Shown piece after piece: positions 6,234-36,011 of a stretch of DNA of 52,993 nt. Every line of letters starts with the position of its first letter. Position 1 is the first letter of the stretch. The notes beneath the pieces were generated by a model. It worked only from the letters and a program-made list of their open reading frames with translations, had not been told where the DNA came from and searched no databases. The translations under genes and the position numbers were made by a program. Origin of the DNA: a virus (taxonomy: Duplodnaviria; Caudoviricetes); IMG/VR virus record IMGVR_UViG_3300025083_000046, positions 1-52,993 of that record, one strand, 5' to 3'.

Positions 6234-7373
6234 ATGGAAATTAAAGTAAGAGCAGTAGAGGATCATGGAGAAAAGTCAGTTCAAGAAGTTGAACAAGAGT
6301 TGCTTGAGAAGCATGAACAACAACTTGAAGAAAGTGGTAGTAACGAATCAGGAAATGAATCAAGCCCTCCGAGTGCCGCCTCCACGCAAGAGCAAGAAGA
6401 TATACAGCCGCAAGGCGAAACACAAACTCAATCCTCAGAGTTAAAAGAGGAAGACGTTCTTTCATATATAGGAAAAAGATATGGTAGAGAAATATCATCT
6501 TTAGATGAACTAAATCAAGTTCGAGAAGAAGCTGAAGAGCTTCCTGAAGATGTGGCTACCTATCTTAAATTTAAAAAAGAAACTGGTAGAGGTTTAAATG
6601 ATTTTGTTAGTGCTAACAAAAATTATGATGACCTTGAGCCAGACCAACTCTTAGCAGATTATTATCGTCAGACTCAGAAGGAGTTAGATGCGGAAGATAT
6701 TAGTTACCTCATCAAAGACAAATTCGGTTATGATGAAGATTATGACGAAGATGATGTCATAAAGAAAAAGAATATCGCTAAGAAAAAGGAGCTTGCTAAA
6801 GCTAAAAATTTCTTTGAGGAATATAAGCAGAAATACTCAACCCCTCTAGAGTCTAGTACGGGGATGCCTTCTGTTGAAAACCAAGAAGAGTTTGAGGCTT
6901 ACAAGAAATATATAGATGATGCAAAGACGTATCAAGAGGAGCTAGAGAGAAAGTCAAATTGGTTTGTAAATAAAACCGAGGAGGTGTTCAACGATGATTT
7001 CAAAGGTTTTGATTTCAATATTGGAGAACAGCAAATAACATTTTCGCCTGGTGATAAGTCTGAGTTAAAGAAGAATCAGCTAGATGTAAACAACTTTGTA
7101 AATAAGTTTCTAGATGAATCGGGAATGATGAAGGATGCCAAAGGATATCATCGAGCATTATCGATTGCAATGAACCCTGAAAAGTTTGCTCAATTTTTTT
7201 ATGAGCAAGGGAAAGCTGATACGGTTACAGAGTCTGCAAAGAAGTCGAAGAATATAAACTTCAATTCTGTGCGATCTACACCAGAGGTTACCAACAAGGG
7301 GGGGACGCAAATTAAGGCACTCAGTTCGACTTCGAGCCGGGGTCTTAAAATTAGATCGAAAAAAAATAACTAA
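6234..7373 (+). CDS. capsid scaffolding/assembly protein
   Basis: Very acidic, helical 379-aa protein between portal and major capsid, with a basic C-terminal tail. Confidence 0.7.
   Translation: MEIKVRAVEDHGEKSVQEVEQELLEKHEQQLEESGSNESGNESSPPSAASTQEQEDIQPQGETQTQSSELKEEDVLSYIGKRYGREISSLDELNQVREEAEELPEDVATYLKFKKETGRGLNDFVSANKNYDDLEPDQLLADYYRQTQKELDAEDISYLIKDKFGYDEDYDEDDVIKKKNIAKKKELAKAKNFFEEYKQKYSTPLESSTGMPSVENQEEFEAYKKYIDDAKTYQEELERKSNWFVNKTEEVFNDDFKGFDFNIGEQQITFSPGDKSELKKNQLDVNNFVNKFLDESGMMKDAKGYHRALSIAMNPEKFAQFFYEQGKADTVTESAKKSKNINFNSVRSTPEVTNKGGTQIKALSSTSSRGLKIRSKKNN
6313..6444 (+). CDS. putative overprinted small basic protein (+1 frame inside the scaffold gene) with an ArfA-like motif
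   Basis: Manual translation MNNNLKKVVVTNQEMNQALRVPPPRKSKKIYSRKAKHKLNPQS*; an alternative upstream ATG is at 6265. Locally atypical GC-rich codons in the main frame. Confidence 0.5.
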   Translation: MNNNLKKVVVTNQEMNQALRVPPPRKSKKIYSRKAKHKLNPQS

Positions 7374-25199: not shown

Positions 25200-28100
25200 A
25201 TGTTTGAAGTAAAAGACCTTTACGATTTAACTTTACCAGGCGCATTTGCTTCGGCAGAAGAGTGGGTACAGTTTTCATCATCTGCTAGCCCTGAAGACTT
25301 ATATGGTTTATTGCAGGATGGTGCGTTTAGTTCAGTAGAGGAATTTCAACAGCAAGTTAATTTTGGAGCATCTCCTTTAAAAAAAAAAGAAGATACGGTA
25401 TCCGTATTGGAGGATGGTTCTTCGGACTTACAAGAGCCTAGTGTTCAGGTTGAGGAAGAGCAGATTGACTTTGACCCTACTGCGGGAATAACAGCACTAG
25501 AAGAAACAGGGGTACTACCCACTCAAGCACAACGAGATTTTACACAAGAACCATTAGGGCCTGTTCAAAAAGTTCCTACAAAAGAGGAGCAGATAGAGGT
25601 GGTAAATAAATACTTATCACCTGAAAGAGAAACAGGGGAGATGGACGCTTTAGTAAAAAGAAGAAGATCATCAATGACTTCAAAATTAAAACCTGTTCTT
25701 ACTCAAGAAGGTTTAGAAAAGAATCAGAAAGATTCTCAAGTTAAATATATTATTGAAAGTCTTGATGAAGCTGATCGTTTAAATGTAGTTGCAAATTTGG
25801 CATCTATAGATGGCGAGATTACCGATGAACAATTATCACAATTAAAAAGTAAAGCAGATGCAAATATAACTTCTAAGTATGGAGAGGAAGAGATGTCTCT
25901 TTTAAATAAAATTACAGGTGGTGTAGATGCTAAAGATGTATTTAATAAATCTATACGATCTACTAATAAGTCTATAATTGATGATTTAGTTGTTGAAGGA
26001 GATGAAACTGCTACAGTAGCAAACTTAAACAATGAGTTTGCTGGAACACCATTTTCTTTTTCAGAAGCCATAATAGGTTCAGATGCAGTTGAGGTTAGCG
26101 TACTTGATGTGTCAGGCGTACCTATTAATAGTAAGATTGTACGGATAGATGATGCTATTAAAGGAAGTCAGAAATTAAAAGACTTTATGGCAAAAGCCAA
26201 TCTCTCAAAGGGTAATAAAGAATTTTTACAAGGTAAGATTAATGGTAAAGACATCAGCAATCTTCCAATGGATCAAAAGCGTTTAGCTAATTATAAGTAT
26301 ATGCTAGAGAACAAAGATAAGTTCTCAGCAGGTAAAGGTGTAGGGTTTAGTATTAATGCAGACGCTATCATGCGTTTTGTAAACGAGAACCCTGGTTTCT
26401 TTCCACCTGAAGAATTACAAAGCATAAAGCTACAACTTGATGCAGCATTAGCAGGTCAATACAAAGAGGATAAAGAATTAGAAGGTTCATTCTTTGGTTC
26501 ATTGGGAGAATCCTTTTTAAAAGGAGCAACACAGACATCTAAGTTTACTACTAACCTTGGCATTGATATAGGAGGGGCTTTGATGCCTAGTATGTTTATG
26601 CCTTCAAATTCATTTAGTGCTATAAACTTTGACGAGAATGGTAATCGATTATCGGATAGTGAGGTTATAGATAAAGTAAAGAAAGAAGGTAAGAGAGAGA
26701 TGATAGCGGCAATGGACAACGCTGTTGAATCATCCTTTACTGGTACTACTCAGGCGTGGATGAATAGTGAGGAAAGAAATGATTTAGCAAAAGCATTAAA
26801 CTTTGTGTTTGAAAGTCTTGGAGTTGTGGCTTCAGTAGGTGCTAATAAATTAGCACTAACACCCGCAGCCGCTAAGACACTAAATGGTCTAGCGTTCTTT
26901 GCATATGCTGCCAATGGTATTGAAGATGAAATGGCAGGTACTGAATACGATGAATTGTCTGAGTGGAAAAAGAAACTTATATCATTCCCATATGGAGTAA
27001 TGATTGGTGCTTTAGAAAACTTAGGATGGGAGGCATCAACAGGTGCGTTTGGAAATAAGGTGTTCGACAAAATATCTAAGGGAATAATTAGCAGGGCTAT
27101 GAAGAGTGTTCCTAAGAACGCATCTGAAAAAGTTATTAAAACAGCAATAGAAAACAGTACCAAGGCGGCAATAGCAGATGGTACAATTAAGATTATTAGT
27201 GGTGCTTTAAGTGAAGGACTTGTTGAAGGAACTCAAGAGTTTGGAGATGTTGGTTTAAAAAATGTGGTCAATCTTATAATGGATAAGGATTACTTTGCTG
27301 ACGCTCCTGATTTAAGTACTAAGGAGGGTTGGTTAGAAACGATAAAGCAAGCAAAAGAGTCTGGCTACTATGGCTTACTAGCGGGTGGTAGTTCAGCAGG
27401 TGGTGGAGGTATCATTCAAGGAACTAAAAAGCGACTACAAAGAGATGCTGACATCCGAGAGTACAATGAGAAAAAGCAAGCCCATACCAATAAGACTCAA
27501 AGAGAAAAATTAATTTTTAATATTAATAATGCACAAAGGCAGGGGCAAATGACTGCCGAACAAGCAGAGGCTGCAAAGGAGCAAGTTCTTGAGGATGCTG
27601 CTACCTATGAACAGATACCTGATGAGGGGCTATCTAATAAAAATAAATTAGAATCATTTGATTTAATTACTGAAAGAAACAATCTAGAGAAAGAGATTGC
27701 CGGAAAGAATGAAGAGCTTGTTACGAAACAGAGGGATCGTATACGAGATATTAATGCACAACTAACAATAATAGGAACACAAGATGCCACTACAGAGCAA
27801 GAAGCAAGCGGTTTGGATGAGGATCAACAAGCCAGAAATGTACAACAAATGGAGGAAGGAACACCCCAACCAGAACCTAAGCAGACTACCGCTGAAGAAG
27901 TTGAAGTCAAAGAAGAATTAAAACCTACCGAAGAGCAACGTGAGAAGCTAGAGAAGCAAGCGGTAAGAGAGTTAAAGAAAGAGAATCGTAAGACTAGACG
28001 AGAAGGATTTAAGGGTGACAAAATTAAGGGTACTCGTAAGAAGTATGAGCCTACTCAAGAAGAGATTGACGCTAGAGTTGATGAGTTATTTCAAGCACAG

Positions 28101-31100
28101 CAACAAGAAGACCAAGAGGTATTAGACCTTGAGGCTGCGATTGAGGGTGAGGTCAAAGAGGGGAGAGCATTACCTAGCGAGACTACTGCTGTTGAAGAAG
28201 TAACTACCGAGGAAGCACCTGTAGCTGAGACAGTGGTTGAGGAGGTAGAAACAGGTAAAAGAGAAGTTGAAGAATATTTTAAAGCCTTAGAAGAACGGAG
28301 GAAAAAAAGTGAAATCGAAAGAAAGCTTTTTTTTGAATACGATGATTCTCCAAAATCATCAAAAGAAAGAAGAGAATTAAAGAAGAAGCTCATAGAAGCT
28401 CAAAGAGATAAAAACGAAGCTGATAAAGTGCTTCAAGAAAAAGAATCTGTTATAACAAATAAGTTTCCAAATTTAAAAGAAGCCTACCAAAAAAAGGAGG
28501 AAGCTGATAGTGAGGAATGGTATGATGCATCAAAAGAATATTATGATGCATTTAATGAAACTATAAATAATATATTAAATCAAGAAGCACCTGTAGCTGA
28601 GACAGCAGTTGAGGAAGAGGTGACTACTGAGGAAGCACCATTAGTCAATCCAAAGGTTGATGGTGTAGTGATGAGCGATAAGAAGCGAAACAAAAAGGAG
28701 CAGGCTCTTGTCGACAGAGCCAAGCGAGCTGCCAAGGCGTTGACAAGGATTGGTAAGGGAGGTGTAACCATAGAGTTGCATGATGACACCGATAGTTTTA
28801 AGAAGGTTACAGGGCAAGATGGTCGTGGCGCATATGACAAGACTAGCAACACAATCCATATCAACTTATCCAAGGCTAACAATACCACCGTTGCACACGA
28901 GGCGTTTCACGCTGTGCTACTACAGAGGGTAAGTAATACCGCTGAGGTAACCAAGACAATGTTCGATGCTGTGCGTAAGGCAGGTAAGGGAGATACTAGG
29001 GTTATGGAGTACACCACTACTAAGGAGGTGGATGGAAAGACTGAGACAGTGACTAAGACTGCTACAGTTGAAGAGTACTTAGAAGACTTTGCTAGCAAAT
29101 ATGAGGAGAACATTCAAGACGAAGAGAAGCTCGCTGAGTTGACAGGTCTACTTGCCTCAAGTTATGTTAACCTTGCACCTGCACCAAAGTCAAAGGTACG
29201 TCAATGGGTTGAAAAGGTGATGACTCCTATTGCAGAAAAACTAGGCATAAAGGTCGATCAGTTTACCAAGACCGATCAGGGCGTTGTTGATTTGTTGAAT
29301 GCAATCTCTGCCAAGGTAACAATAGGTGAAGAGATTCAAGAGGGGGATGTCAAGGTGCTTGAGGAGATAGAGACTAAAGAGGAGTATTCTGAAAGTGCAG
29401 ATGTTTTAAAAGAGTATAACAATAACGAGATAGCAGAGATAACAAGAAACTCTAACAATAATGCAGAAGAATTTTTAGGTAAATTAATCTCAAAGGAAAC
29501 TAAAAAAGTAGAGGGAGGAAGTATTGAACAAGAAGTGTATCAATATGGCATCATCCAAAGAATCTTTGCAAATGATGGTTCTAAAATCCAAAGACTAACG
29601 GACTATTCTGGGAAGGTTTATGGTACACCTATTATAAATTTAACCATGGACTCTATGGAATCTGGTTTGCTTTTTGGAGGTAAAAAAGATTTTAGTTTAA
29701 GTGAAAAAGAAATCACTTATTTTTTCAACTCTAAATTTAAGCCTGTACAAGAGATAGAGACTAAACCTGAGACCAAGAAGAAAGGTAAGGCAAAGAAAAT
29801 AAATTGGACTAAGTCTGAGGGCAAGAGACCCAAGAGACAGACTACAGGTACAGAGATGGGTAAGGTAGTGCGAAGCTATGAGGCGGGTGAGATTACTCTA
29901 GAAGAGTACAACAAGAAGGCAGATGAGTTGATGCCTACTCGAATGAAAGAGAAGTTCACAGAGCCTGCAACAAATCCGGAGCTAGGAAAATTAAGAGGGC
30001 AAAAGAAAGCCAAGATAAATGCTCCTATAAAAGAAGGTGCTGACGTTGGTCTAAGGTTAGACATTCCTCTTATGGAAGATACAGGTGTGTCTGCTGTTAC
30101 GATACACCCTGGTCGAGGATTAACATCTTCGGCTTCATCGTATAGAGGTGCTGCTGTGATTAGTGACGTTGAATTTAAAAGCAACCCTAAGTCTTCATTA
30201 GGTCTAGCATCAGAGGCTACCACAAAGAACCCAACGATTGCTCGTATGGCAGGTAGCTTTGTCAACATTGGAGAGACTATCGAGGAGCAGAACGAGGCGG
30301 CTAAGAAGTTAGCACAACAAGCAATGAACGAGGGGTGGACACAGGTTGGTGTCAATCCATCTAAGCACTCATACTTCTATGACCGATCCAATGGGAAACC
30401 TTTGAAGAGTGCTGACAGAGTTGTTCAGGTAGGAGACCTCATCTATGCAGAGAATGCTAAGACCACTACAATATATGACGATAGATTTATTGTCAAGGGC
30501 AAGACCGATAAGAAGGGAGGCCCACTACGTTTCCAGAAGGCAAATCAAGATATTGAATTTGGAAGGTTAACGAATCCTACTAGAATATCTGTAGCCGGAA
30601 AAGATATTTCTAATTTAATATTTCTTCAAGGTTTAGGAAATACTTCTGTAATAGATGACTACATAAGAAGATATAAAGATATTATAAAGATATCTAATAG
30701 TAGGAGATTTAATAAATCTGAAAAATTACAGACAGATTATTTAAGAAGTGAATTAACAAAACGGATAGACCTAACCATAAAAAGATTACAAAAAGAAATT
30801 GAATTTAACAAGTCTAAATTAGTAGACAAAGATGGGGATGTTTCTCCTTTAAGATCTGAAAAAATAAAAGATGCTCAGGTTAGAGTTGAGTTATTAGATG
30901 AGATTAAAAACACTATATCTGAAAACTTATTTTCACCAAGTGATCTGGAAATTACAACAGAACCTGAAGAGCAAGGAGAGGGTGGTGAAGTAGGTACTAT
31001 TAGACTACAAAAAGCAAACATACAATTCAAACCAGCTCCAGGGATAGGAACAGACACAAGATCATTTGCAAAATTCTATGAGGAAAAAAGTCTGAGAGAT

Positions 31101-34100
31101 TTTAATGGTAAGAAGTTTGTAACTAATATGTATGACTTTACCAACGCTGGAGAAGTGGATTTGGGGAATGGATATGTTATTAATCTATGGGGTGGTAAAA
31201 GTTATGTCCCATATATGTTAGAAAAAAGAGGTAAGAATTTAGGAGAGGTTTCTAATCTTGCTGCTTTTAATACAGAAGAACAGGCTGAAACTTTTATCAG
31301 AAATTCTAAAGAAGAAAATGCTTCTTTGTTCATACCACACTCTGGTACTACTAAAGGTTCATGGCAGTTTCAGCAATCAATATTTCAAGAGCTTACAAAT
31401 TTAGCACTAGACAAAAAGATTCTAAGCAAAAAACAATTAATATCATTGTTTAATGAATCTATTAAAAGTGATAAGGGTAAGAAAGCGTTTAAAACTTTTG
31501 TAAAGAACTACAATCAGAAGAGAGAAAAAGAAAAAAAGAAACCAAAAAATATAAAAGACTTTAATTCTTTTATAACTAATCCTAAAGAAATAATTGAACT
31601 GCTTGACATAGAAAACAATATGTCTCCAGACTTAAGAAAGATTTTTAACAGTAAATATTCTACAAACGAAGCATTTAAAGAAGCGTTAGGTGTAAAGAAC
31701 TCTATTGACTTTGCATTAAAAATGGAAGATCCGTTGAATAATGGTATATCAGGGGGAGACCTTATGGGTATAATTGAGTTTGATAATACTTCTTTTAAAA
31801 TAAGAAAACCTAACAAGAACGACCCTGATTATCATCCATCGTTTGCATATACTGTTGAGGCAAAAATAAATGGAGTGTATCAACCTACAGAGTTTTATAA
31901 GTCTAATGAAGTTACTGATTCCTATACAAAAAACAATAAGGATGGCGCAAAGGTGTCAAGAAAAACTGACTTTACCTTAGAAGAGTATGAGCTAGCTAAA
32001 AAAGGTATTGCTATTAATGATGAAGGCAAGAAAGTTAAAAGGAAACCATTCAAAGGTACACTAGAAGAGTTTCAGGAAATGAAATTTGAAAAGTCTAATG
32101 TATCTAGTAGTGCTGGTTCAATACCAAAGGTAGCAGAGTTATCAGAGACTGCGATGCGAGAGCAGAAGAGTCTTATGCAGATAGGTAGGTATTACAATGC
32201 CAACAACCAAGGGTTCTTCCCAGTGCAGGTAAATGCATATCAACTCAAGCAAGACCTAGAGCAGATAGGATTTGGTTTGAAGCGTGCTGTTAATGGAGCG
32301 TACTACGCCACAAGGAATGGGCGTAAAGTAAATCCATTCCCACCTGAGCCAAGTAGATATAGAAGACAAAGGGATGACATTGGTATCGTAGAAGAAAAAA
32401 GTTTTACAAGTAAGAACACCGTAGCAGATATCATCATTGCTGCTAGACGAGAAGGGTTCAAAGATAAAGCCATCCGATTCTATATACTAAAGAGACGATC
32501 AGATATCAAGGAGGAGAATGGTAAGCCTTTGCGAGCGAAGACTGTAGATGATATGCTTCGAGTACCTGCAAATATATTAGAGAATGTGCCGGATAGTTTC
32601 AAGGAGATTGAAGGTGGAGCAGCAGCAGGTCTAAGGTTGTATCAAAAGGTTGAGCAGCTTAGAGATAAACTTCTTGCCGCCAACGCTAGAATAAAATCTC
32701 CTAAGTTATCTGACGCTGGTATCAAACAGAAGATAAAGGAGAAGAGAGAGGAGTTAAAAAAGAAAAAACTTTCAGACGAGCAACTCGCCAAAGAGTTAGA
32801 TGCTTTCACTAAAAGAGAATACAAGAACAACAAAGCTCGTAAGGAGATGAAGACCGAGAGTGAAATCATGGATGAGGTTATTGAGTTCTTAGAGAAACAA
32901 CCTGAGTACATCGAAGCTGGTGACAAGGGTAAGAAGACACCATCTCTACTTCAGTCTAAGATGCAAGCAGAACTCCAAGCAACGATTGCCTTCCGACCAT
33001 CTAGAGAGGTGGCTCAGAATCTTTCTAAGTTAAAGAATAGAGCAAGAGCAATGGAGAAGGCAGGTAGAGACCTTCAAGAAATAAAGCGTCAGCTTAGAGC
33101 AACACTTCGTAAGTCACTACCAAAGACTGAGTACTCCAAGCCAGAGGTGATGAGACTTTTAGGTGAGATTGCAAAAGTAGATGCAAGTAATTTACAAGAC
33201 GTAATTGGAGAGATAGAAAGTTTTATTGTTAAAAAGAACGTACAAATACTAGAGGCTCAGATAGACAAGCTATTAGGTACGAAGGTTACTAAGAGTGAGG
33301 CTGGAAGACGTAAGGGTAAGTTTGGATATGATGAAGCGGCTAGACTAGAAGCCATCAACAACAATATTGTTAAGGATAAAAAGGTTGATGGTAAGGTAGT
33401 TAAGTATACTGCTGAAGAAATCATGGATAAAAATGAAAGACTTCGTAGAGAGCTTAATGAAATTATGCGTCAACCTGAATTAAGTTCGGAGAATATAAAC
33501 AAGCTAACCGATCTTCAGATAGCAATCAATATCAACAGTGCCAATCTGATGAAGGCACAGTTAGGAACAAAGGAAAGAATCAGTCCTAATATTATTGCAC
33601 CATTGGTAACAGCACAAGAGTCACTGCAAGAATTAATTGAAGAGGGTCGCTCTAAATTTAAAGTAGAACTTCAAGAAGCGCATCAAAAATACCAAGAGCA
33701 ATTCACTATGCTTTGGGAAGAGATTACAGGAGAGAAGATAGATATGTCTGACCCTGATGTAAGAGATAAAATAAATGCTAGATTAAAAGAATCTTCTAGG
33801 ATAAGCAAGGCTGAGAAAGCCAAAAACAGAGGGAAGTTTAGAAATGTTCTTACGAATATGTACGACTCTTTAGTAAGAGGATTAAATAAGGCAGAAGATT
33901 TATCTGGTTTAATGAACAAGATATCTATTATGCCAGGGGAGTTAGCAGGTGGTCGTATTCAAGAGATGATTACTGATAGGGTAGATGAATCTACTAGAGT
34001 ATACAAAGGTAGAATGATGATACAAGAAGATGTCATCGAAAATAAGATGGAAGAAATATTTGGAAGAAAGTGGAGAAAGAGAGCTGTACAGTTAAACGAC

Positions 34101-36011
34101 ACTAAAACAAATGGCATAACTCTAGAGACAAAAGATGAAGTCCAAACAATTTCTCAAAACCAATTGGCATACCTATACAATCAGTATAAAGACCCAGCTA
34201 ATGCAGGTTCGTTCAAAGCAATGTTCGGAGAAAACTATGAGCAAGAAATGAGTAAGCTCATATCACAGTTAGATCCTCAATTAAAAGAGTGGGCAGATTG
34301 GCAGGTTGATGAATTCTTTCCATCAGTTTATGAATACTACAATGATGCATACAAAAAGATATATAGAACTGATATGCCATGGAATCAATTCTATGCAGGT
34401 AGAATATATAGAGAAGGATTTGAGCAAGAGCCATTAGATATGTTGGCAAACTCTTCAATATTCCAAACCTCTGTGGGTGCAGCTTCAACATTAGAAAGAA
34501 AAGTAAATAATTTGCCTATCCAAGCAATGAATATCAACAACGCTTTGACAAGTTATATTCAGGACATGGAATACTTTGCCGCCCATGCTGAAACAGTAAG
34601 GGACATTGATAAAATGTTTACTAATAAGGATGTTAGAAAATACTTAAAAAACATTTATGGTGATGACATCAATAACCTAATTGATTCTATGATCAAAAAG
34701 GTGTCGGCTAAAGGACAGCAAAAGTTTAAGATGGCTAGCTTCATAAATAAAAGTATGAATGCATTTATAATATCTAAACTTGCATTTAACCCGGTGGTAT
34801 TTATAAAACAGCTTACATCTATACCAACATATGCTAATGACATTGGCATTGCAAATTGGATTAAGTATTCTAAGCTAGGTAGTACATTGTCTCAAAGACG
34901 TAGTGCAATAATGGAGGACTACAATGAGGTTATAAAAAACTCTGTGTACTTACAAGACAGAGCCAAAGGTTTAAATATTAGAAATGCTATTGCTCATTAC
35001 GAGGATCATTCAAATTCTATTATAGATAAAAGTTTTGGAGCTGAAGCTCAGAGGATAGCAATGATGCTTACCAAGAGTGGTGATAAGGCAGCGATTATGT
35101 TGGGAGGTCTTCCAAACTACAGATACTACAAAGCTCAATACAAAAAGCAAAATCCAAAGGCTACTGAGCAAGAGGTTATTGATTATGCTATTAGAAAGTT
35201 TGAGCGTGACACCAAGAAGACACAGCAGTCTAGTGACATACAAGACCGAGACTATTATCAGACTGATGATCCATTGATGAGGTCATTCAATATGTTCATG
35301 ACTACACCTAAGCAATACTTGAGGAAAGAAATTGATGCCTTTAGAAATTTGGGTAGAAAAATTAAGTCTCTTGACAAAAAGAAAAGTTTAAAAGAAAATA
35401 TAAAATCTTTTAAAGAAACAGGCAAAGGAACAGTGGGTCAAAACCTAAGACAGTTAGCAATGTATCATGTAATGATGCCTGCATTGTTTCAATGGGCAGC
35501 TTTAGGATTCCCGGTAGATATGGATGATGAGGATAAAGCAGACATGGCGGGAGCAATGTTGTTAGGAAACTTAAATGCATTATTTATAGTAGGAGATTTA
35601 TTTACTATGACTAAAGATGTTCTATTAGAAAAGCCTTGGGGGGGAACGCCAGAAACTTTATCTATAATGCAATGGGCATCATCTGTTTTACGAAAGTGGT
35701 CAAAGTGGCAACAAAAAATAGATGCTAAAAAACCAGACCCTACTAAGATTGATGATGCTAGATATGATTTCTATGGTACTATTTTAGAAGGAGCAGGTAT
35801 ACCAGCCAGACAAGGTATGAGATACTATGACAACTATACCAAATTGTTTACCGAAAAAATGGATACGCCTGAAAAGATAAGAAGGATTCTAAACTATTCT
35901 GATTACACTATAGAAGGTAAGAAAGATGACAAGAAGAAAGGTTCAGGAATGTCATCAGGAGTTTCTTCAGGAATGTCATCAGGAGTTTCTTCAGGAATGT
36001 CTAGCAACTAG
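25200..36011 (+). CDS. giant (3603 aa) polyvalent virion/ejection protein with a zincin-like metallopeptidase domain
   Basis: GAY...IHINL...VAHEAFH (HExxH at 28896-28910) with downstream EEKLAE; G/A-rich hydrophobic helices at about 26500-27420; multiple inserted modules; helical C-terminal region. Confidence 0.8.
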   Translation: MFEVKDLYDLTLPGAFASAEEWVQFSSSASPEDLYGLLQDGAFSSVEEFQQQVNFGASPLKKKEDTVSVLEDGSSDLQEPSVQVEEEQIDFDPTAGITALEETGVLPTQAQRDFTQEPLGPVQKVPTKEEQIEVVNKYLSPERETGEMDALVKRRRSSMTSKLKPVLTQEGLEKNQKDSQVKYIIESLDEADRLNVVANLASIDGEITDEQLSQLKSKADANITSKYGEEEMSLLNKITGGVDAKDVFNKSIRSTNKSIIDDLVVEGDETATVANLNNEFAGTPFSFSEAIIGSDAVEVSVLDVSGVPINSKIVRIDDAIKGSQKLKDFMAKANLSKGNKEFLQGKINGKDISNLPMDQKRLANYKYMLENKDKFSAGKGVGFSINADAIMRFVNENPGFFPPEELQSIKLQLDAALAGQYKEDKELEGSFFGSLGESFLKGATQTSKFTTNLGIDIGGALMPSMFMPSNSFSAINFDENGNRLSDSEVIDKVKKEGKREMIAAMDNAVESSFTGTTQAWMNSEERNDLAKALNFVFESLGVVASVGANKLALTPAAAKTLNGLAFFAYAANGIEDEMAGTEYDELSEWKKKLISFPYGVMIGALENLGWEASTGAFGNKVFDKISKGIISRAMKSVPKNASEKVIKTAIENSTKAAIADGTIKIISGALSEGLVEGTQEFGDVGLKNVVNLIMDKDYFADAPDLSTKEGWLETIKQAKESGYYGLLAGGSSAGGGGIIQGTKKRLQRDADIREYNEKKQAHTNKTQREKLIFNINNAQRQGQMTAEQAEAAKEQVLEDAATYEQIPDEGLSNKNKLESFDLITERNNLEKEIAGKNEELVTKQRDRIRDINAQLTIIGTQDATTEQEASGLDEDQQARNVQQMEEGTPQPEPKQTTAEEVEVKEELKPTEEQREKLEKQAVRELKKENRKTRREGFKGDKIKGTRKKYEPTQEEIDARVDELFQAQQQEDQEVLDLEAAIEGEVKEGRALPSETTAVEEVTTEEAPVAETVVEEVETGKREVEEYFKALEERRKKSEIERKLFFEYDDSPKSSKERRELKKKLIEAQRDKNEADKVLQEKESVITNKFPNLKEAYQKKEEADSEEWYDASKEYYDAFNETINNILNQEAPVAETAVEEEVTTEEAPLVNPKVDGVVMSDKKRNKKEQALVDRAKRAAKALTRIGKGGVTIELHDDTDSFKKVTGQDGRGAYDKTSNTIHINLSKANNTTVAHEAFHAVLLQRVSNTAEVTKTMFDAVRKAGKGDTRVMEYTTTKEVDGKTETVTKTATVEEYLEDFASKYEENIQDEEKLAELTGLLASSYVNLAPAPKSKVRQWVEKVMTPIAEKLGIKVDQFTKTDQGVVDLLNAISAKVTIGEEIQEGDVKVLEEIETKEEYSESADVLKEYNNNEIAEITRNSNNNAEEFLGKLISKETKKVEGGSIEQEVYQYGIIQRIFANDGSKIQRLTDYSGKVYGTPIINLTMDSMESGLLFGGKKDFSLSEKEITYFFNSKFKPVQEIETKPETKKKGKAKKINWTKSEGKRPKRQTTGTEMGKVVRSYEAGEITLEEYNKKADELMPTRMKEKFTEPATNPELGKLRGQKKAKINAPIKEGADVGLRLDIPLMEDTGVSAVTIHPGRGLTSSASSYRGAAVISDVEFKSNPKSSLGLASEATTKNPTIARMAGSFVNIGETIEEQNEAAKKLAQQAMNEGWTQVGVNPSKHSYFYDRSNGKPLKSADRVVQVGDLIYAENAKTTTIYDDRFIVKGKTDKKGGPLRFQKANQDIEFGRLTNPTRISVAGKDISNLIFLQGLGNTSVIDDYIRRYKDIIKISNSRRFNKSEKLQTDYLRSELTKRIDLTIKRLQKEIEFNKSKLVDKDGDVSPLRSEKIKDAQVRVELLDEIKNTISENLFSPSDLEITTEPEEQGEGGEVGTIRLQKANIQFKPAPGIGTDTRSFAKFYEEKSLRDFNGKKFVTNMYDFTNAGEVDLGNGYVINLWGGKSYVPYMLEKRGKNLGEVSNLAAFNTEEQAETFIRNSKEENASLFIPHSGTTKGSWQFQQSIFQELTNLALDKKILSKKQLISLFNESIKSDKGKKAFKTFVKNYNQKREKEKKKPKNIKDFNSFITNPKEIIELLDIENNMSPDLRKIFNSKYSTNEAFKEALGVKNSIDFALKMEDPLNNGISGGDLMGIIEFDNTSFKIRKPNKNDPDYHPSFAYTVEAKINGVYQPTEFYKSNEVTDSYTKNNKDGAKVSRKTDFTLEEYELAKKGIAINDEGKKVKRKPFKGTLEEFQEMKFEKSNVSSSAGSIPKVAELSETAMREQKSLMQIGRYYNANNQGFFPVQVNAYQLKQDLEQIGFGLKRAVNGAYYATRNGRKVNPFPPEPSRYRRQRDDIGIVEEKSFTSKNTVADIIIAARREGFKDKAIRFYILKRRSDIKEENGKPLRAKTVDDMLRVPANILENVPDSFKEIEGGAAAGLRLYQKVEQLRDKLLAANARIKSPKLSDAGIKQKIKEKREELKKKKLSDEQLAKELDAFTKREYKNNKARKEMKTESEIMDEVIEFLEKQPEYIEAGDKGKKTPSLLQSKMQAELQATIAFRPSREVAQNLSKLKNRARAMEKAGRDLQEIKRQLRATLRKSLPKTEYSKPEVMRLLGEIAKVDASNLQDVIGEIESFIVKKNVQILEAQIDKLLGTKVTKSEAGRRKGKFGYDEAARLEAINNNIVKDKKVDGKVVKYTAEEIMDKNERLRRELNEIMRQPELSSENINKLTDLQIAININSANLMKAQLGTKERISPNIIAPLVTAQESLQELIEEGRSKFKVELQEAHQKYQEQFTMLWEEITGEKIDMSDPDVRDKINARLKESSRISKAEKAKNRGKFRNVLTNMYDSLVRGLNKAEDLSGLMNKISIMPGELAGGRIQEMITDRVDESTRVYKGRMMIQEDVIENKMEEIFGRKWRKRAVQLNDTKTNGITLETKDEVQTISQNQLAYLYNQYKDPANAGSFKAMFGENYEQEMSKLISQLDPQLKEWADWQVDEFFPSVYEYYNDAYKKIYRTDMPWNQFYAGRIYREGFEQEPLDMLANSSIFQTSVGAASTLERKVNNLPIQAMNINNALTSYIQDMEYFAAHAETVRDIDKMFTNKDVRKYLKNIYGDDINNLIDSMIKKVSAKGQQKFKMASFINKSMNAFIISKLAFNPVVFIKQLTSIPTYANDIGIANWIKYSKLGSTLSQRRSAIMEDYNEVIKNSVYLQDRAKGLNIRNAIAHYEDHSNSIIDKSFGAEAQRIAMMLTKSGDKAAIMLGGLPNYRYYKAQYKKQNPKATEQEVIDYAIRKFERDTKKTQQSSDIQDRDYYQTDDPLMRSFNMFMTTPKQYLRKEIDAFRNLGRKIKSLDKKKSLKENIKSFKETGKGTVGQNLRQLAMYHVMMPALFQWAALGFPVDMDDEDKADMAGAMLLGNLNALFIVGDLFTMTKDVLLEKPWGGTPETLSIMQWASSVLRKWSKWQQKIDAKKPDPTKIDDARYDFYGTILEGAGIPARQGMRYYDNYTKLFTEKMDTPEKIRRILNYSDYTIEGKKDDKKKGSGMSSGVSSGMSSGVSSGMSSN
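27784..27921 (+). CDS. putative overprinted small basic protein (+1 frame inside the giant gene)
   Basis: Manual translation MPLQSKKQAVWMRINKPEMYNKWRKEHPNQNLSRLPLKKLKSKKN*; A-rich context before the ATG. Confidence 0.55.
   Translation: MPLQSKKQAVWMRINKPEMYNKWRKEHPNQNLSRLPLKKLKSKKN
28212..28605 (+). repeat. 22-bp direct repeat (GAAGCACCTGTAGCTGAGACAG) flanking an AT-rich module
   Basis: Exact copies at 28212-28233 and 28584-28605. Confidence 0.9.
29364..29765 (+). repeat. 15-bp direct repeat (GAGATAGAGACTAAA) flanking an AT-rich module
   Basis: Exact copies at 29364-29378 and 29751-29765. Confidence 0.85.
35942..36001 (+). repeat. 24-bp tandem repeat, 2.5 copies, encoding (SGMSSGVS)n
   Basis: TTCAGGAATGTCATCAGGAGTTTC twice plus a partial third copy. 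Confidence 0.9.

What the first reader, a model, noticed from the sequence alone, without database searches (positions are those of the whole stretch)
27784..27921. Second overprinted gene: a 45-aa MPxxSKKQxxWM peptide nested in the giant ejection protein
Seen: +1-frame ORF MPLQSKKQAVWMRINKPEMYNKWRKEHPNQNLSRLPLKKLKSKKN, with an A-rich upstream context including AGGA. It underlies the main-frame linker DATTEQEASGLDEDQQARNVQQMEEG. From recollection, not searched: it resembles a widespread family of small free-standing phage hypotheticals of the form MPFKSxxQRxWMxxNxPExAxxW. The spacing of W, M, N, P, E and W is not explained by Glu-to-Lys frame bias. Inference: a real internally initiated gene, possibly a nucleic-acid-binding core peptide or a chaperone co-expressed with the giant protein.
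Basis: partly seen in the sequence, partly recalled or inferred. Interest (0 to 1): 0.8.

Follow-up and report, generated by a model that had tools for sequence, protein, structure and literature searches.

The report
Real small gene nested in giant gene
A 45-codon gene for a small, strongly basic protein is written one base out of step inside the 3,603-codon virion-module gene of this marine phage; related phages keep the same unannotated gene inside that gene, inside the scaffold-position gene, or free-standing, so it is very probably real, though what it does is unknown.

Summary
The ORF is there exactly as described (27784-27921, +1 frame of the 25200-36011 gene). Its length alone is chance level: codon shuffles expect 1.6-1.7 such ORFs and 2 are seen. 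Homology decides the case. A profile built only from six free-standing phage genes finds this ORF as the single significant hit among 1,365 six-frame segments of the window (E 2.3e-9). The family has at least 1,548 members, all "hypothetical", with no Pfam family.

In records chosen by scaffold similarity rather than by the peptide, 14 of 20 hold exactly one copy (5 of 5 among near-complete ones). In 13 of those 14 it is nested in the +1 frame of a giant ORF. The peptide frame is better conserved than the host frame in 100 of 105 pairs, and the flanking giant-protein sequence is barely alignable. Other phages carry the gene nested in the scaffold-position gene (78 of 80 loci), or free-standing after the giant gene or next to portal and terminase genes.

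Expression and function were not shown. The four closest relatives alone are not decisive (p = 0.14). GenBank records of cultured Flavobacterium phages do not annotate it. Earlier reports of this scan describe the same kind of nested gene on other DNA.

The parts
27784..27921 (+). Nested gene: 45 codons plus TAA, in the +1 frame of the giant gene. It encodes a basic peptide (13 K+R, 2 D+E, pI 10.9).
   Evidence: Family membership.
25200..36011 (+). Host gene: a 3,603-codon ORF of the virion module. Its frame stays open across the nested gene. The overlapped part reads as an acidic linker (14 D+E, 3 K+R, pI 4.1).
   Evidence: Homologues are annotated 'structural protein' in Flavobacterium phage elemoA. 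No Pfam or PHROG match.
27763..27783 (+). Leader of the nested gene: A-rich, with +1-frame stops at 27763, 27769 and 27772 and AGGA at 27773-27776. There is no alternative start between the last stop and the ATG.
   Evidence: All 19 nested leaders listed are 50-80% A in their last 20 nt, with an upstream +1 stop 2-10 codons away.
27784..27891 (+). Conserved core, residues 1-36 (MP[FL]xSKxQ..WM..N.P.M...W..E.P....LP). The model predicts helices at residues 6-15 (27799-27828) and 17-26 (27832-27861).
   Evidence: Alignments A2 and A4. AlphaFold2 model with mean pLDDT 84. Contigs of other phages match the window only at 27810-27873.
27892..27918 (+). Lys-rich C-terminal tail, residues 37-45. It varies in length and sequence across the family and is predicted to be disordered.
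   Evidence: pLDDT 59 for the last block.

Best explanation
27784-27921 is a real protein-coding gene embedded in the +1 frame of the giant virion-module gene. It belongs to a large, unnamed family of 40-60-residue phage proteins. These have an N-terminal MP(F/L)xSKxQ motif, two short predicted helices held together by conserved aromatic and Met residues, and a Lys/Arg-rich tail. There is one copy per genome.

The same DNA is read in two frames. The host frame gives an acidic, fast-evolving linker that is only kept open. The +1 frame gives the conserved basic peptide.

Inferred, not shown: the peptide is made by independent initiation at its own AUG on the giant gene's mRNA. The leader is A-rich, there is no conserved Shine-Dalgarno sequence, and stops lie just upstream. 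From my own knowledge, this fits how Bacteroidota start translation.

Inferred from gene context only: it acts in head assembly or DNA packaging, or is packaged itself, most likely as a nucleic-acid- or virion-protein-binding cofactor. I hold 'real nested gene' at about 0.85 and the functional clause at about 0.4.
For: Homology independent of the window: an HMM of 6 free-standing copies hits only this ORF, at E 2.3e-9, among 1,365 six-frame segments. phmmer over 1.84 billion proteins gave 6 collinear small proteins. The family profile gave 1,548 proteins of 2,130 candidates.

Free-standing copies. Some start 2 nt after the stop of a homologous giant gene (L006, L007), or directly after a long ORF (L200). 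Others lie after a portal-position ORF and before the scaffold-position and major-head genes (L013, L014), before terminase subunit genes (L008-L012), or as Send513 gp7 directly after the annotated portal gene.

Sample not chosen by the peptide: 80 loci were picked by scaffold C-terminus, and the whole records of 20 of them were searched. 14 of 20 have exactly one copy, and 5 of 5 of those at least 90% complete do. 13 of the 14 are nested in the +1 frame of an ORF that is open over at least 1,039 codons, or 545 where the locus is cut by a contig end.

Frame-specific conservation. Among giant-nested copies the +1 peptide averages 54% identity and the host frame 39%; +1 is higher in 100 of 105 pairs, and the flanks are 21-23% identical. 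For elemoA against MW202828.1 the figures are 77% (+1), 45% (host) and 19-25% (flanks). In the scaffold-nested set, variable sites by peptide codon position 1/2/3 are 16/15/31, and host divergence is 0.34 against 0.16, higher in 664 of 666 pairs.

The host-like frame carries stops in 6 of 7 free-standing copies. Its openness in nested copies is therefore maintained rather than intrinsic.

One copy per genome: 26 of 38 records searched have exactly one and none has two. In the complete genome G001 the nested copy is the only one.

The AlphaFold2 model is confident for so short a peptide (pLDDT 84). The best BFVD matches are uncharacterized 44-aa phage proteins (probability 0.96-0.97).
Against: There is no direct evidence of translation or of an internal start.

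ORF length is at chance level.

Within the four closest relatives the test has little power. Of 14 variable sites, 7/4/3 fall at host codon positions 1/2/3, against 20/12/26 in the flanks; Fisher p = 0.14 for position 3 and 0.36 for position 1. Variable residues are 7 of 45 in +1 and 8 of 46 in frame 0.

The scaffold-nested loci were found through the peptide itself, which biases their codon-position pattern.

The gene is not universal. None was found in L003's record (85% complete). None was found in 5 of 5 more distant cultured relatives: Maribacter Panino, Cellulophaga phi38:1, phi19:3 and phi13:2, and Tenacibaculum Gundel_1. None was found in 6 of 20 scaffold-chosen records, all fragments 41-88% complete.

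Two of 80 scaffold-nested loci have ATA in place of ATG.

Function: no Pfam, PDB or informative PHROG match.
Confidence: 0.82

Rival explanations
1. Relic: a small gene was once absorbed into the giant gene. In the window's own lineage it is no longer expressed and persists only because too little time has passed.
For: No expression data exist. The close clade of 4 sequences shows no significant frame-specific pattern (p = 0.14). Some related phages lack the family altogether.
Against: The ORF, its ATG and its stop are intact in 4 of 4 close relatives and in 13 of 13 much more diverged giant-nested copies. It is the only family copy in the complete genome G001. All seven residue changes in the clade are conservative: K/N, V/T, E/Q, N/K, K/E, R/K and K/R. 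Sequence conservation peaks exactly on the ORF, while the flanks are 21-23% identical.
Confidence: 0.08
2. The conserved element is the host-frame acidic motif, or a nucleotide-level signal such as an RNA structure or DNA site. The +1 ORF is a by-product.
For: The host frame is kept open in all nested copies. Its reading also shows a recurring pattern (DA..EQ...VD..Q...V..VE.G).
Against: The host frame is less conserved than +1 in 100 of 105 and 664 of 666 pairs. The most variable positions are the third positions of the +1 codons (31, against 16 and 15). Free-standing homologues encode the same peptide while carrying stops in the host-like frame in 6 of 7 cases.
Confidence: 0.03
3. Chance open frame in a Glu/Gln/Lys-rich linker, where +1-frame stops are rare.
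For: 1.6-1.7 ORFs of this length are expected by chance in this gene and 2 are seen. A 50-codon +1 ORF lies nearby.
Against: Profile E of 2.3e-9 from free-standing genes only. The alignment is collinear from Met1. The ORF recurs in the same frame in 18 searched records with giant-nested copies.
Confidence: 0.01
4. The +1 frame is reached by programmed +1 frameshifting from the giant ORF. This would give a truncated giant N-terminal part ending in the basic peptide, rather than a separate small protein.
For: Both frames lie on one mRNA, and phage structural genes are known to use frameshifts (own knowledge).
Against: +1-frame stops lie 3, 4 and 6 codons upstream of the ATG. An upstream +1 stop lies 2-10 codons away in all 19 nested leaders listed, which leaves almost no room to shift. 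Homologues start at the same Met as free-standing genes. No slippery motif was examined.
Confidence: 0.03

Closest known systems
Embedded two-component spanin genes, lambda Rz/Rz1 type (Kongari et al. 2018, PMC6139136; I read passages found with 'embedded', 'overlapped' and 'separated')
   Same: A small gene lies wholly inside a larger phage gene, in another frame on the same strand. The family also occurs in a separated architecture. Automated annotation often misses it.
   Different: This is not a spanin: the peptide has no Cys, no lipobox and no signal sequence. The host is a virion-module gene, not a lysis gene. That paper states that no spanin family had members in both embedded and overlapped or separated architectures. 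Here one family has embedded copies in two different host genes and also free-standing copies. The embedded gene is the older, better conserved partner, and the host frame over it is the fast-evolving one.
phiX174 gene E inside the scaffold gene D, and K inside A/C (recalled from my own knowledge; no paper read for this)
   Same: An out-of-frame gene nested in a morphogenesis gene of a phage.
   Different: In the phiX174 case the nested gene is usually taken to be the novel, overprinted one. Here the nested gene belongs to a family that is widespread as free-standing genes. The genomes are 50-60-kb double-stranded DNA and are not under comparable size pressure.
Free-standing 'hypothetical protein' members of the same family, for example Mycobacterium phage Send513 gp7, IMG/VR loci L006-L014, and uncharacterized 44-aa proteins of uncultured Caudovirales in BFVD
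   Same: Same N-terminal motif, length, predicted two-helix core and basic tail, and the same head and packaging gene neighbourhood.
   Different: Those copies occupy their own intergenic slot, and 6 of 7 have stops in the frame that the giant gene uses here. The link to Send513 gp7 is weak (tblastn E 9e-4).
Pfam DUF3008 (PF11450)
   Same: It is the nearest named cluster in the ESM Atlas search: score 0.85, with the family on 15% of that cluster's members. I also recall a similar MPxKSKAQ start; that is recollection, not a tested result.
   Different: No sequence-level match. P0001 and the 16 members of A4 gave no DUF3008 hit at E<=10 or E<=1. The Pfam model found nothing in the window at E<=10.

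Membership tests
Unnamed MP(F/L)xSKxQ small phage protein family (no Pfam accession) | Significant match to a profile built from members other than the query | tested here: met
   An HMM of 6 free-standing copies gives E 2.3e-9 (33.6 bits); the next segment has E 3.3; 1,365 segments were scanned.
Unnamed MP(F/L)xSKxQ small phage protein family (no Pfam accession) | Collinear alignment from the initiator Met, with invariant M1, P2, S5, Q8, P17 and P36, and a length of about 40-60 aa | tested here: met
   A4 alignment of 16 members. P0001 has all six invariant residues and is 45 aa long.
Unnamed MP(F/L)xSKxQ small phage protein family (no Pfam accession) | Located in the head, packaging or virion gene module, with one copy per genome | tested here: met
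   26 of 38 records have exactly one copy and none has two. Gene contexts.
Embedded overlapping gene (Rz1-in-Rz architecture) | Lies wholly inside another ORF, on the same strand, in a different frame, with its own start codon | tested here: met
Embedded overlapping gene (Rz1-in-Rz architecture) | Both frames under selection | tested here: met
   The +1 frame is better conserved than the host frame. The host frame is kept open, although it has stops in 6 of 7 free-standing copies. Within the window's close clade alone the result is inconclusive.
Embedded overlapping gene (Rz1-in-Rz architecture) | Both products are made | not testable with these tools
   An RNA-library contig covers 27620-27900, but this shows neither transcription for certain nor translation.
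o-spanin (Rz1) | N-terminal lipoprotein signal with a lipobox Cys | tested here: not met
   P0001 has no Cys and no hydrophobic signal segment.
Pfam DUF3008 (PF11450) | Match to the Pfam model at or above its 24-bit cut-off | tested here: not met
   No match at E<=10 for P0001, at E<=1 for the 16 family members, or for the model against the window. The only support is an Atlas lead at 0.85.
PHROG phrog_1375 (unknown function) | Match to the PHROG profile | tested here: inconclusive
   P0005 gave E 8.1e-4 and P0009 E 0.018. P0001 itself matched only phrog_14333, at E 0.17.

The most novel reading that the evidence does not exclude
The ~110-140-nt gene behaves as a portable dual-coding cassette. 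An old basic-peptide gene has been absorbed repeatedly into different virion genes (the scaffold-position gene, the middle of the giant gene) or sits at their ends. Its -1 frame, which is necessarily acidic, supplies the disordered linker of the host protein. In this reading, some acidic linkers of phage virion proteins were born as the alternative frame of a small gene, rather than the small gene being overprinted on the linker.

A bolder extension: the peptide has 13 K+R and 2 D+E, and the linker written on the same bases has 14 D+E and 3 K+R. They could be physical partners, for example the peptide neutralising or chaperoning the linker during assembly or packaging.

Support. A well-supported peptide clade (97/92) unites all 15 scaffold-nested sequences in the tree with the giant-nested copies of the window, L001, L002 and L191, while other giant-nested copies lie elsewhere. 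From my reading of the host-frame sequences, similarity between the window's linker and the scaffold-nested loci seems to stop at the ORF borders; this was not measured. 0 of 80 scaffold genes closest to the window's carry the gene.
Probability: 0.3. Interest if true: 0.8.

Novelty: new variant of a known kind. Interest (0 to 1): 0.62.

Why it matters
Gene callers and GenBank records miss this gene. In the 60 rows listed of 69 phage records that hold the elemo-type copy, the only annotated feature under the match is the giant CDS. A conserved, single-copy component of the head and virion module of a large group of marine Flavobacteriia phages is therefore absent from proteomes, pangenomes and proteomics search databases.

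It is also a clean natural example in which the embedded gene is the older, constrained partner and the host's disordered linker is the passenger. That bears on how giant multi-domain virion proteins and their linkers arise. The case is directly testable, because cultured carriers exist (Flavobacterium phage vB_FspP_elemo isolates).

Tried and rejected
Searches with the peptide alone that found nothing:
- PHROGs gave only phrog_14333 at E 0.17.
- Pfam gave nothing.
- tblastn against 50,697 phage records gave nothing at E<=10.
- The word-indexed protein search found no candidate.
- tblastn and megablast of the giant gene against the phage collection gave nothing.
- A scaffold-nested peptide (L025) against the phage collection gave one chance-level hit, E 4.

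Structure and family look-ups that did not help with function:
- The PDB sequence search with the family profile gave only a designed repeat protein (no single stretch significant) and two hits with E above 0.6.
- Foldseek against PDB gave no match at E<=10.
- Pfam on 16 members gave only scattered single hits at E 0.028 or worse.
- The DUF3008 model found nothing in the window.
- P0007, a 456-aa repeat protein, matches only residues 17-39. I set it aside as unrelated and left it out of all alignments.

Complex prediction of the portal (alignment A6) with the peptide (alignment A4) returned no answer: score 0.00, mark 0.32, controls not run. It counts neither for nor against binding.

Sequencing runs. 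DNA runs hold the stretch. RNA runs hold only 5-8% of its sampled words. One contig from an RNA library covers 27620-27900, but the tool warns that DNA can be present in such libraries. Parts without cover mean nothing.

The metagenome scan added only one close relative, L005.

Papers:
- A search for the motif strings and 'DUF3008' found 0 papers.
- A search for 'Elemovirus', 'elemoA' and 'vB_FspP_elemoA' listed 10 papers, none of which describes this gene by its title or abstract start. The primary description of these phages was not among them.
- A search for 'overlapping gene', 'scaffolding protein', 'bacteriophage' and 'overprinting' found 83 papers, of which 15 were listed; none is on this family by title. 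I saw only the listings.
My statement that the nested gene is not in print rests on these three searches only.

I considered the AGGA as a Shine-Dalgarno sequence and rejected it. It occurs only in the window clade, in 3 of 19 nested leaders listed.

The window's other +1 ORF, in the scaffold-position gene (6265-6444), is not a member of this family.
Full report
THE OBSERVATION

The window holds an ATG-to-TAA ORF at 27784-27921. It lies in the +1 frame of a 3,603-codon ORF, 25200-36011, and begins within host codon 862. The host frame over it reads as an acidic linker with 14 D+E, 3 K+R and pI 4.1. The nested peptide has 13 K+R, 2 D+E and pI 10.9.

Three +1-frame stops (27763, 27769, 27772) lie just upstream of the ATG. 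The last 20 nt before it are 60% A, against 38% for the gene, and contain AGGA.

IS THE ORF MORE THAN CHANCE?

By length it is not. It is the second longest of 98 ATG ORFs in the +1 frame of this gene. A 50-codon one lies at 28780-28932, and others of 42, 41 and 38 codons follow. Permuting the gene's codons 1,000 times gives a mean of 1.73 +1 ORFs of 45 codons or more. Resampling synonymous codons 1,000 times gives 1.63. Two are observed. The case therefore rests on the sequence, not on the open frame.

HOMOLOGY

Quick look-ups with the peptide failed: PHROGs E 0.17, Pfam none, phage tblastn none, word-index search none.

A full phmmer scan of 1.84 billion representative proteins did find relatives. 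It returned seven hits at E<=0.001. Six are proteins of 42-63 aa that align collinearly from their own Met-Pro start, with 50-74% identity and E from 2.1e-10 to 5.5e-4. The seventh is a 456-aa repeat protein that matches only residues 17-39, and I set it aside.

A profile of 16 members found 1,548 proteins at E<=0.001 among 2,130 candidates. Every listed member that carries a source name is called 'hypothetical' or bears only gene-call coordinates, and none has a Pfam domain.

Those profiles contain the window's own peptide. I therefore built an HMM from six free-standing copies only. Among 1,365 stop-to-stop segments of the window in six frames, it hits this ORF alone, at E 2.3e-9; the next best has E 3.3.

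WHERE THE FAMILY LIVES

Free-standing copies:
- L006 and L007 start 2 nt after the stop of a giant gene that is 35% identical to the window's over about 1,250-1,315 residues.
- L200 lies directly after a long ORF and before genes on the opposite strand.
- L013 and L014 lie after a 660-aa ORF and before a 254- or 261-aa ORF and a major-head-protein gene.
- L008-L012 lie directly before terminase small and large subunit genes.
- Mycobacterium phage Send513 gp7 is annotated directly after the portal gene. This link is weak (tblastn E 9e-4).

Copies nested in the scaffold-position gene. A scan of IMG/VR with the closest members found 158 stretches and kept 80. In 78 of the 80, the 42-53-codon ORF sits in the +1 frame about 47 codons into an ORF of roughly 390-400 codons; the other two are cut by contig ends. 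That host gene is the homologue of the window's gene 6234-7373, which lies after the portal gene and before the capsid gene. The C-terminal 250 residues are 36% identical and the neighbouring genes are the same.

Copies nested in the giant gene:
- the window, L001, L002 and L005;
- Flavobacterium phage vB_FspP_elemoA_7-9A, at about codon 1,221 of its 3,694-codon 'structural protein' gene;
- MW202828.1, at about codon 865, which is nearly the window's position.
In the 60 listed rows of 69 GenBank records that hold the elemo-type copy, only the giant CDS is annotated under the match.

A SAMPLE NOT CHOSEN BY THE PEPTIDE

The 80 scaffold-nested loci were found through the peptide itself, so I drew a second sample by the scaffold protein's C-terminus. 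This gave 80 loci, 48-100% identical to the window. None of the 80 has a family member within 1.5 kb of the scaffold match.

I then searched the whole records behind 20 of them. Fourteen hold exactly one copy, including 5 of 5 that are at least 90% complete. The six without are fragments, 41-88% complete. Thirteen of the 14 copies are nested in the +1 frame of an ORF that stays open across the whole fetched locus, at least 1,039 codons (545 in the one locus cut by a contig end). One, L200, is free-standing.

Over all records searched with a family profile, 26 of 38 hold exactly one copy and none holds two. Of the 26, 18 are giant-nested, 5 scaffold-nested and 3 free-standing after the giant gene.

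The 12 without a copy are:
- L003's record, 85% complete, whose linker at this position is unrelated and has no +1 ORF;
- the six fragments;
- five complete genomes of more distant cultured relatives, with portal identity 28-47%: Maribacter phage Panino, Cellulophaga phages phi38:1, phi19:3 and phi13:2, and Tenacibaculum phage Gundel_1.
The gene is therefore characteristic of a clade, not universal.

WHICH FRAME IS UNDER SELECTION?

Giant-nested copies (15 unique sequences: the 13 above, of which two have identical cores, plus the window, elemoA and MW202828.1). The first 28 residues of the peptide average 54% identity. The host-frame reading of the same bases averages 39%. The peptide frame is higher in 100 of 105 pairs. 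The 100 host residues on either side average 23% and 21%, which is barely alignable. For elemoA against MW202828.1 the figures are 77% for the peptide, 45% for the host frame and 19-25% for the flanks. The nested ORF is thus an island of conservation in a hypervariable part of the giant gene, and that conservation is best read in the +1 frame.

Scaffold-nested copies (37 unique cores from 80 loci). These encode 21 distinct peptides but 36 distinct host-frame sequences. Variable sites fall 16/15/31 on peptide codon positions 1/2/3. Host-frame divergence (0.34) exceeds peptide divergence (0.16) in 664 of 666 pairs. This set is biased by how it was found.

Free-standing copies. In 6 of 7, the frame that the host gene would use contains 1-6 stops. 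Its openness in nested copies is therefore maintained, which makes the stretch dual-coding.

The window's own clade. Four sequences give little power. There are 14 variable sites in the overlap, 7/4/3 at host positions 1/2/3, against 20/12/26 in the flanks. Fisher p is 0.14 for position 3 and 0.36 for position 1. Seven of 45 peptide residues vary, all conservatively, against eight of 46 host residues.

Laid contigs agree with this picture. Contigs of other phages match the window only at 27810-27873, and their loose ends read as other MPF... starts.

HOW IT PROBABLY WORKS

Shown: two frames of one DNA stretch are conserved, and the small one more strongly.

Inferred: the peptide is translated from its own AUG. 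In all 19 nested leaders listed, the start codon (ATG, or ATA in L086) is the first possible start after a +1 stop 2-10 codons upstream, and the last 20 nt are 50-80% A. A Shine-Dalgarno-like AGGA occurs only in the window clade (3 of 19). From my own knowledge, Bacteroidota rely on A-rich, unstructured leaders rather than Shine-Dalgarno pairing, and this fits. Two of the 80 scaffold-nested loci have ATA in place of ATG.

AlphaFold2 with the 16-row alignment gives a confident small fold (mean pLDDT 84). It has helices at residues 6-15 and 17-26, joined at the invariant Pro17, followed by a disordered Lys-rich tail. The best BFVD matches are uncharacterized 44-aa proteins of uncultured Caudovirales (probability 0.96-0.97, E 0.19-0.27). 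PDB gives nothing.

Every context found belongs to the head, packaging or virion module. I therefore take the peptide to be a small basic cofactor of head assembly or DNA packaging, or a packaged peptide. This is context-based inference only.

COMPARISON WITH WHAT IS KNOWN

The architecture is that of embedded phage genes such as lambda Rz1 inside Rz. Kongari et al. 2018 describe embedded, overlapped and separated spanin architectures, found in 182, 228 and 118 of 528 systems, and state that no family combined the embedded architecture with the others (PMC6139136; passages read).

This case differs in three ways:
- It is not a spanin: the peptide has no Cys, lipobox or signal sequence.
- One family occurs embedded in two different host genes and also free-standing.
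- The embedded gene is the older, more constrained partner.

A peptide tree places all 15 scaffold-nested sequences together with the giant-nested copies of the window, L001, L002 and L191 in one supported clade (97/92), apart from the other giant-nested copies. The gene has therefore changed host gene at least once. The tree has only 54 columns, and 15 of its 35 inner branches are unresolved.

DUF3008 is the nearest named family by language-model features only. It fails every sequence test.

NOVELTY AND VERDICT

I found no paper on this family or on its nesting (listings only). Earlier reports of this scan describe the same kind of thing on other DNA, including an 'MPxKS-type' 58-aa gene in the +1 frame of a giant virion gene and a basic peptide gene in a scaffold gene. 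This is therefore a further instance of a pattern the scan has already met, not a first sighting.

I rate it a new variant of a known kind, a real gene with probability about 0.85, and of moderate to high interest.

Noticed in passing
Its basic tail (QALRVP.P...KK.Y.RK.KHK...PQS) recurs in the +1 frame of the scaffold genes of L111-L113 and also of L133 and L140, whose scaffolds are only 52-53% identical to the window's. That is 5 of the first 40 loci printed. It may be a second real nested gene.
   Followed up: partly
window 28780-28932: This is the longest +1-frame ATG ORF of the giant gene (50 codons), just upstream of or across the HEAFH motif region. It was not searched for homologues.
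   Followed up: no
L086 6001 and L087 4988: Two scaffold-nested copies have ATA where all others have ATG, with the rest of the ORF intact. This is either a non-canonical start or a recently lost one.
   Followed up: no
L008-L012 (for example L012 6001-6126): In this 'free-standing' subtype the host-like frame is open (0 stops). A 125-codon ORF on the same strand overlaps the small gene (for example L008 618-995), directly upstream of the terminase small-subunit gene. It may be a third kind of overlap.
   Followed up: no
window 28194-28204: Contigs from three runs (X11, X12, X15) carry or begin the same 31-base insertion here. It matches the extra 'VTGAVPEDVAVEE'-like segment seen in L002, so this is an indel polymorphism in a repeat-rich part of the giant gene.
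   Followed up: no
L101 1501-1626 (Flavobacterium phage elemoA) and L102 (MW202828.1): The elemo-type subfamily of the nested peptide carries two conserved Cys (..KACY....NPKWDCKKW..) that are absent from the window's subtype.
   Followed up: no
window 25200-36011: The giant protein has no Pfam or PHROG match at all, despite an HEAFH zincin-like motif, and it ends in a Gly/Ser/Met repeat (GMSSGVSS)n.
   Followed up: no
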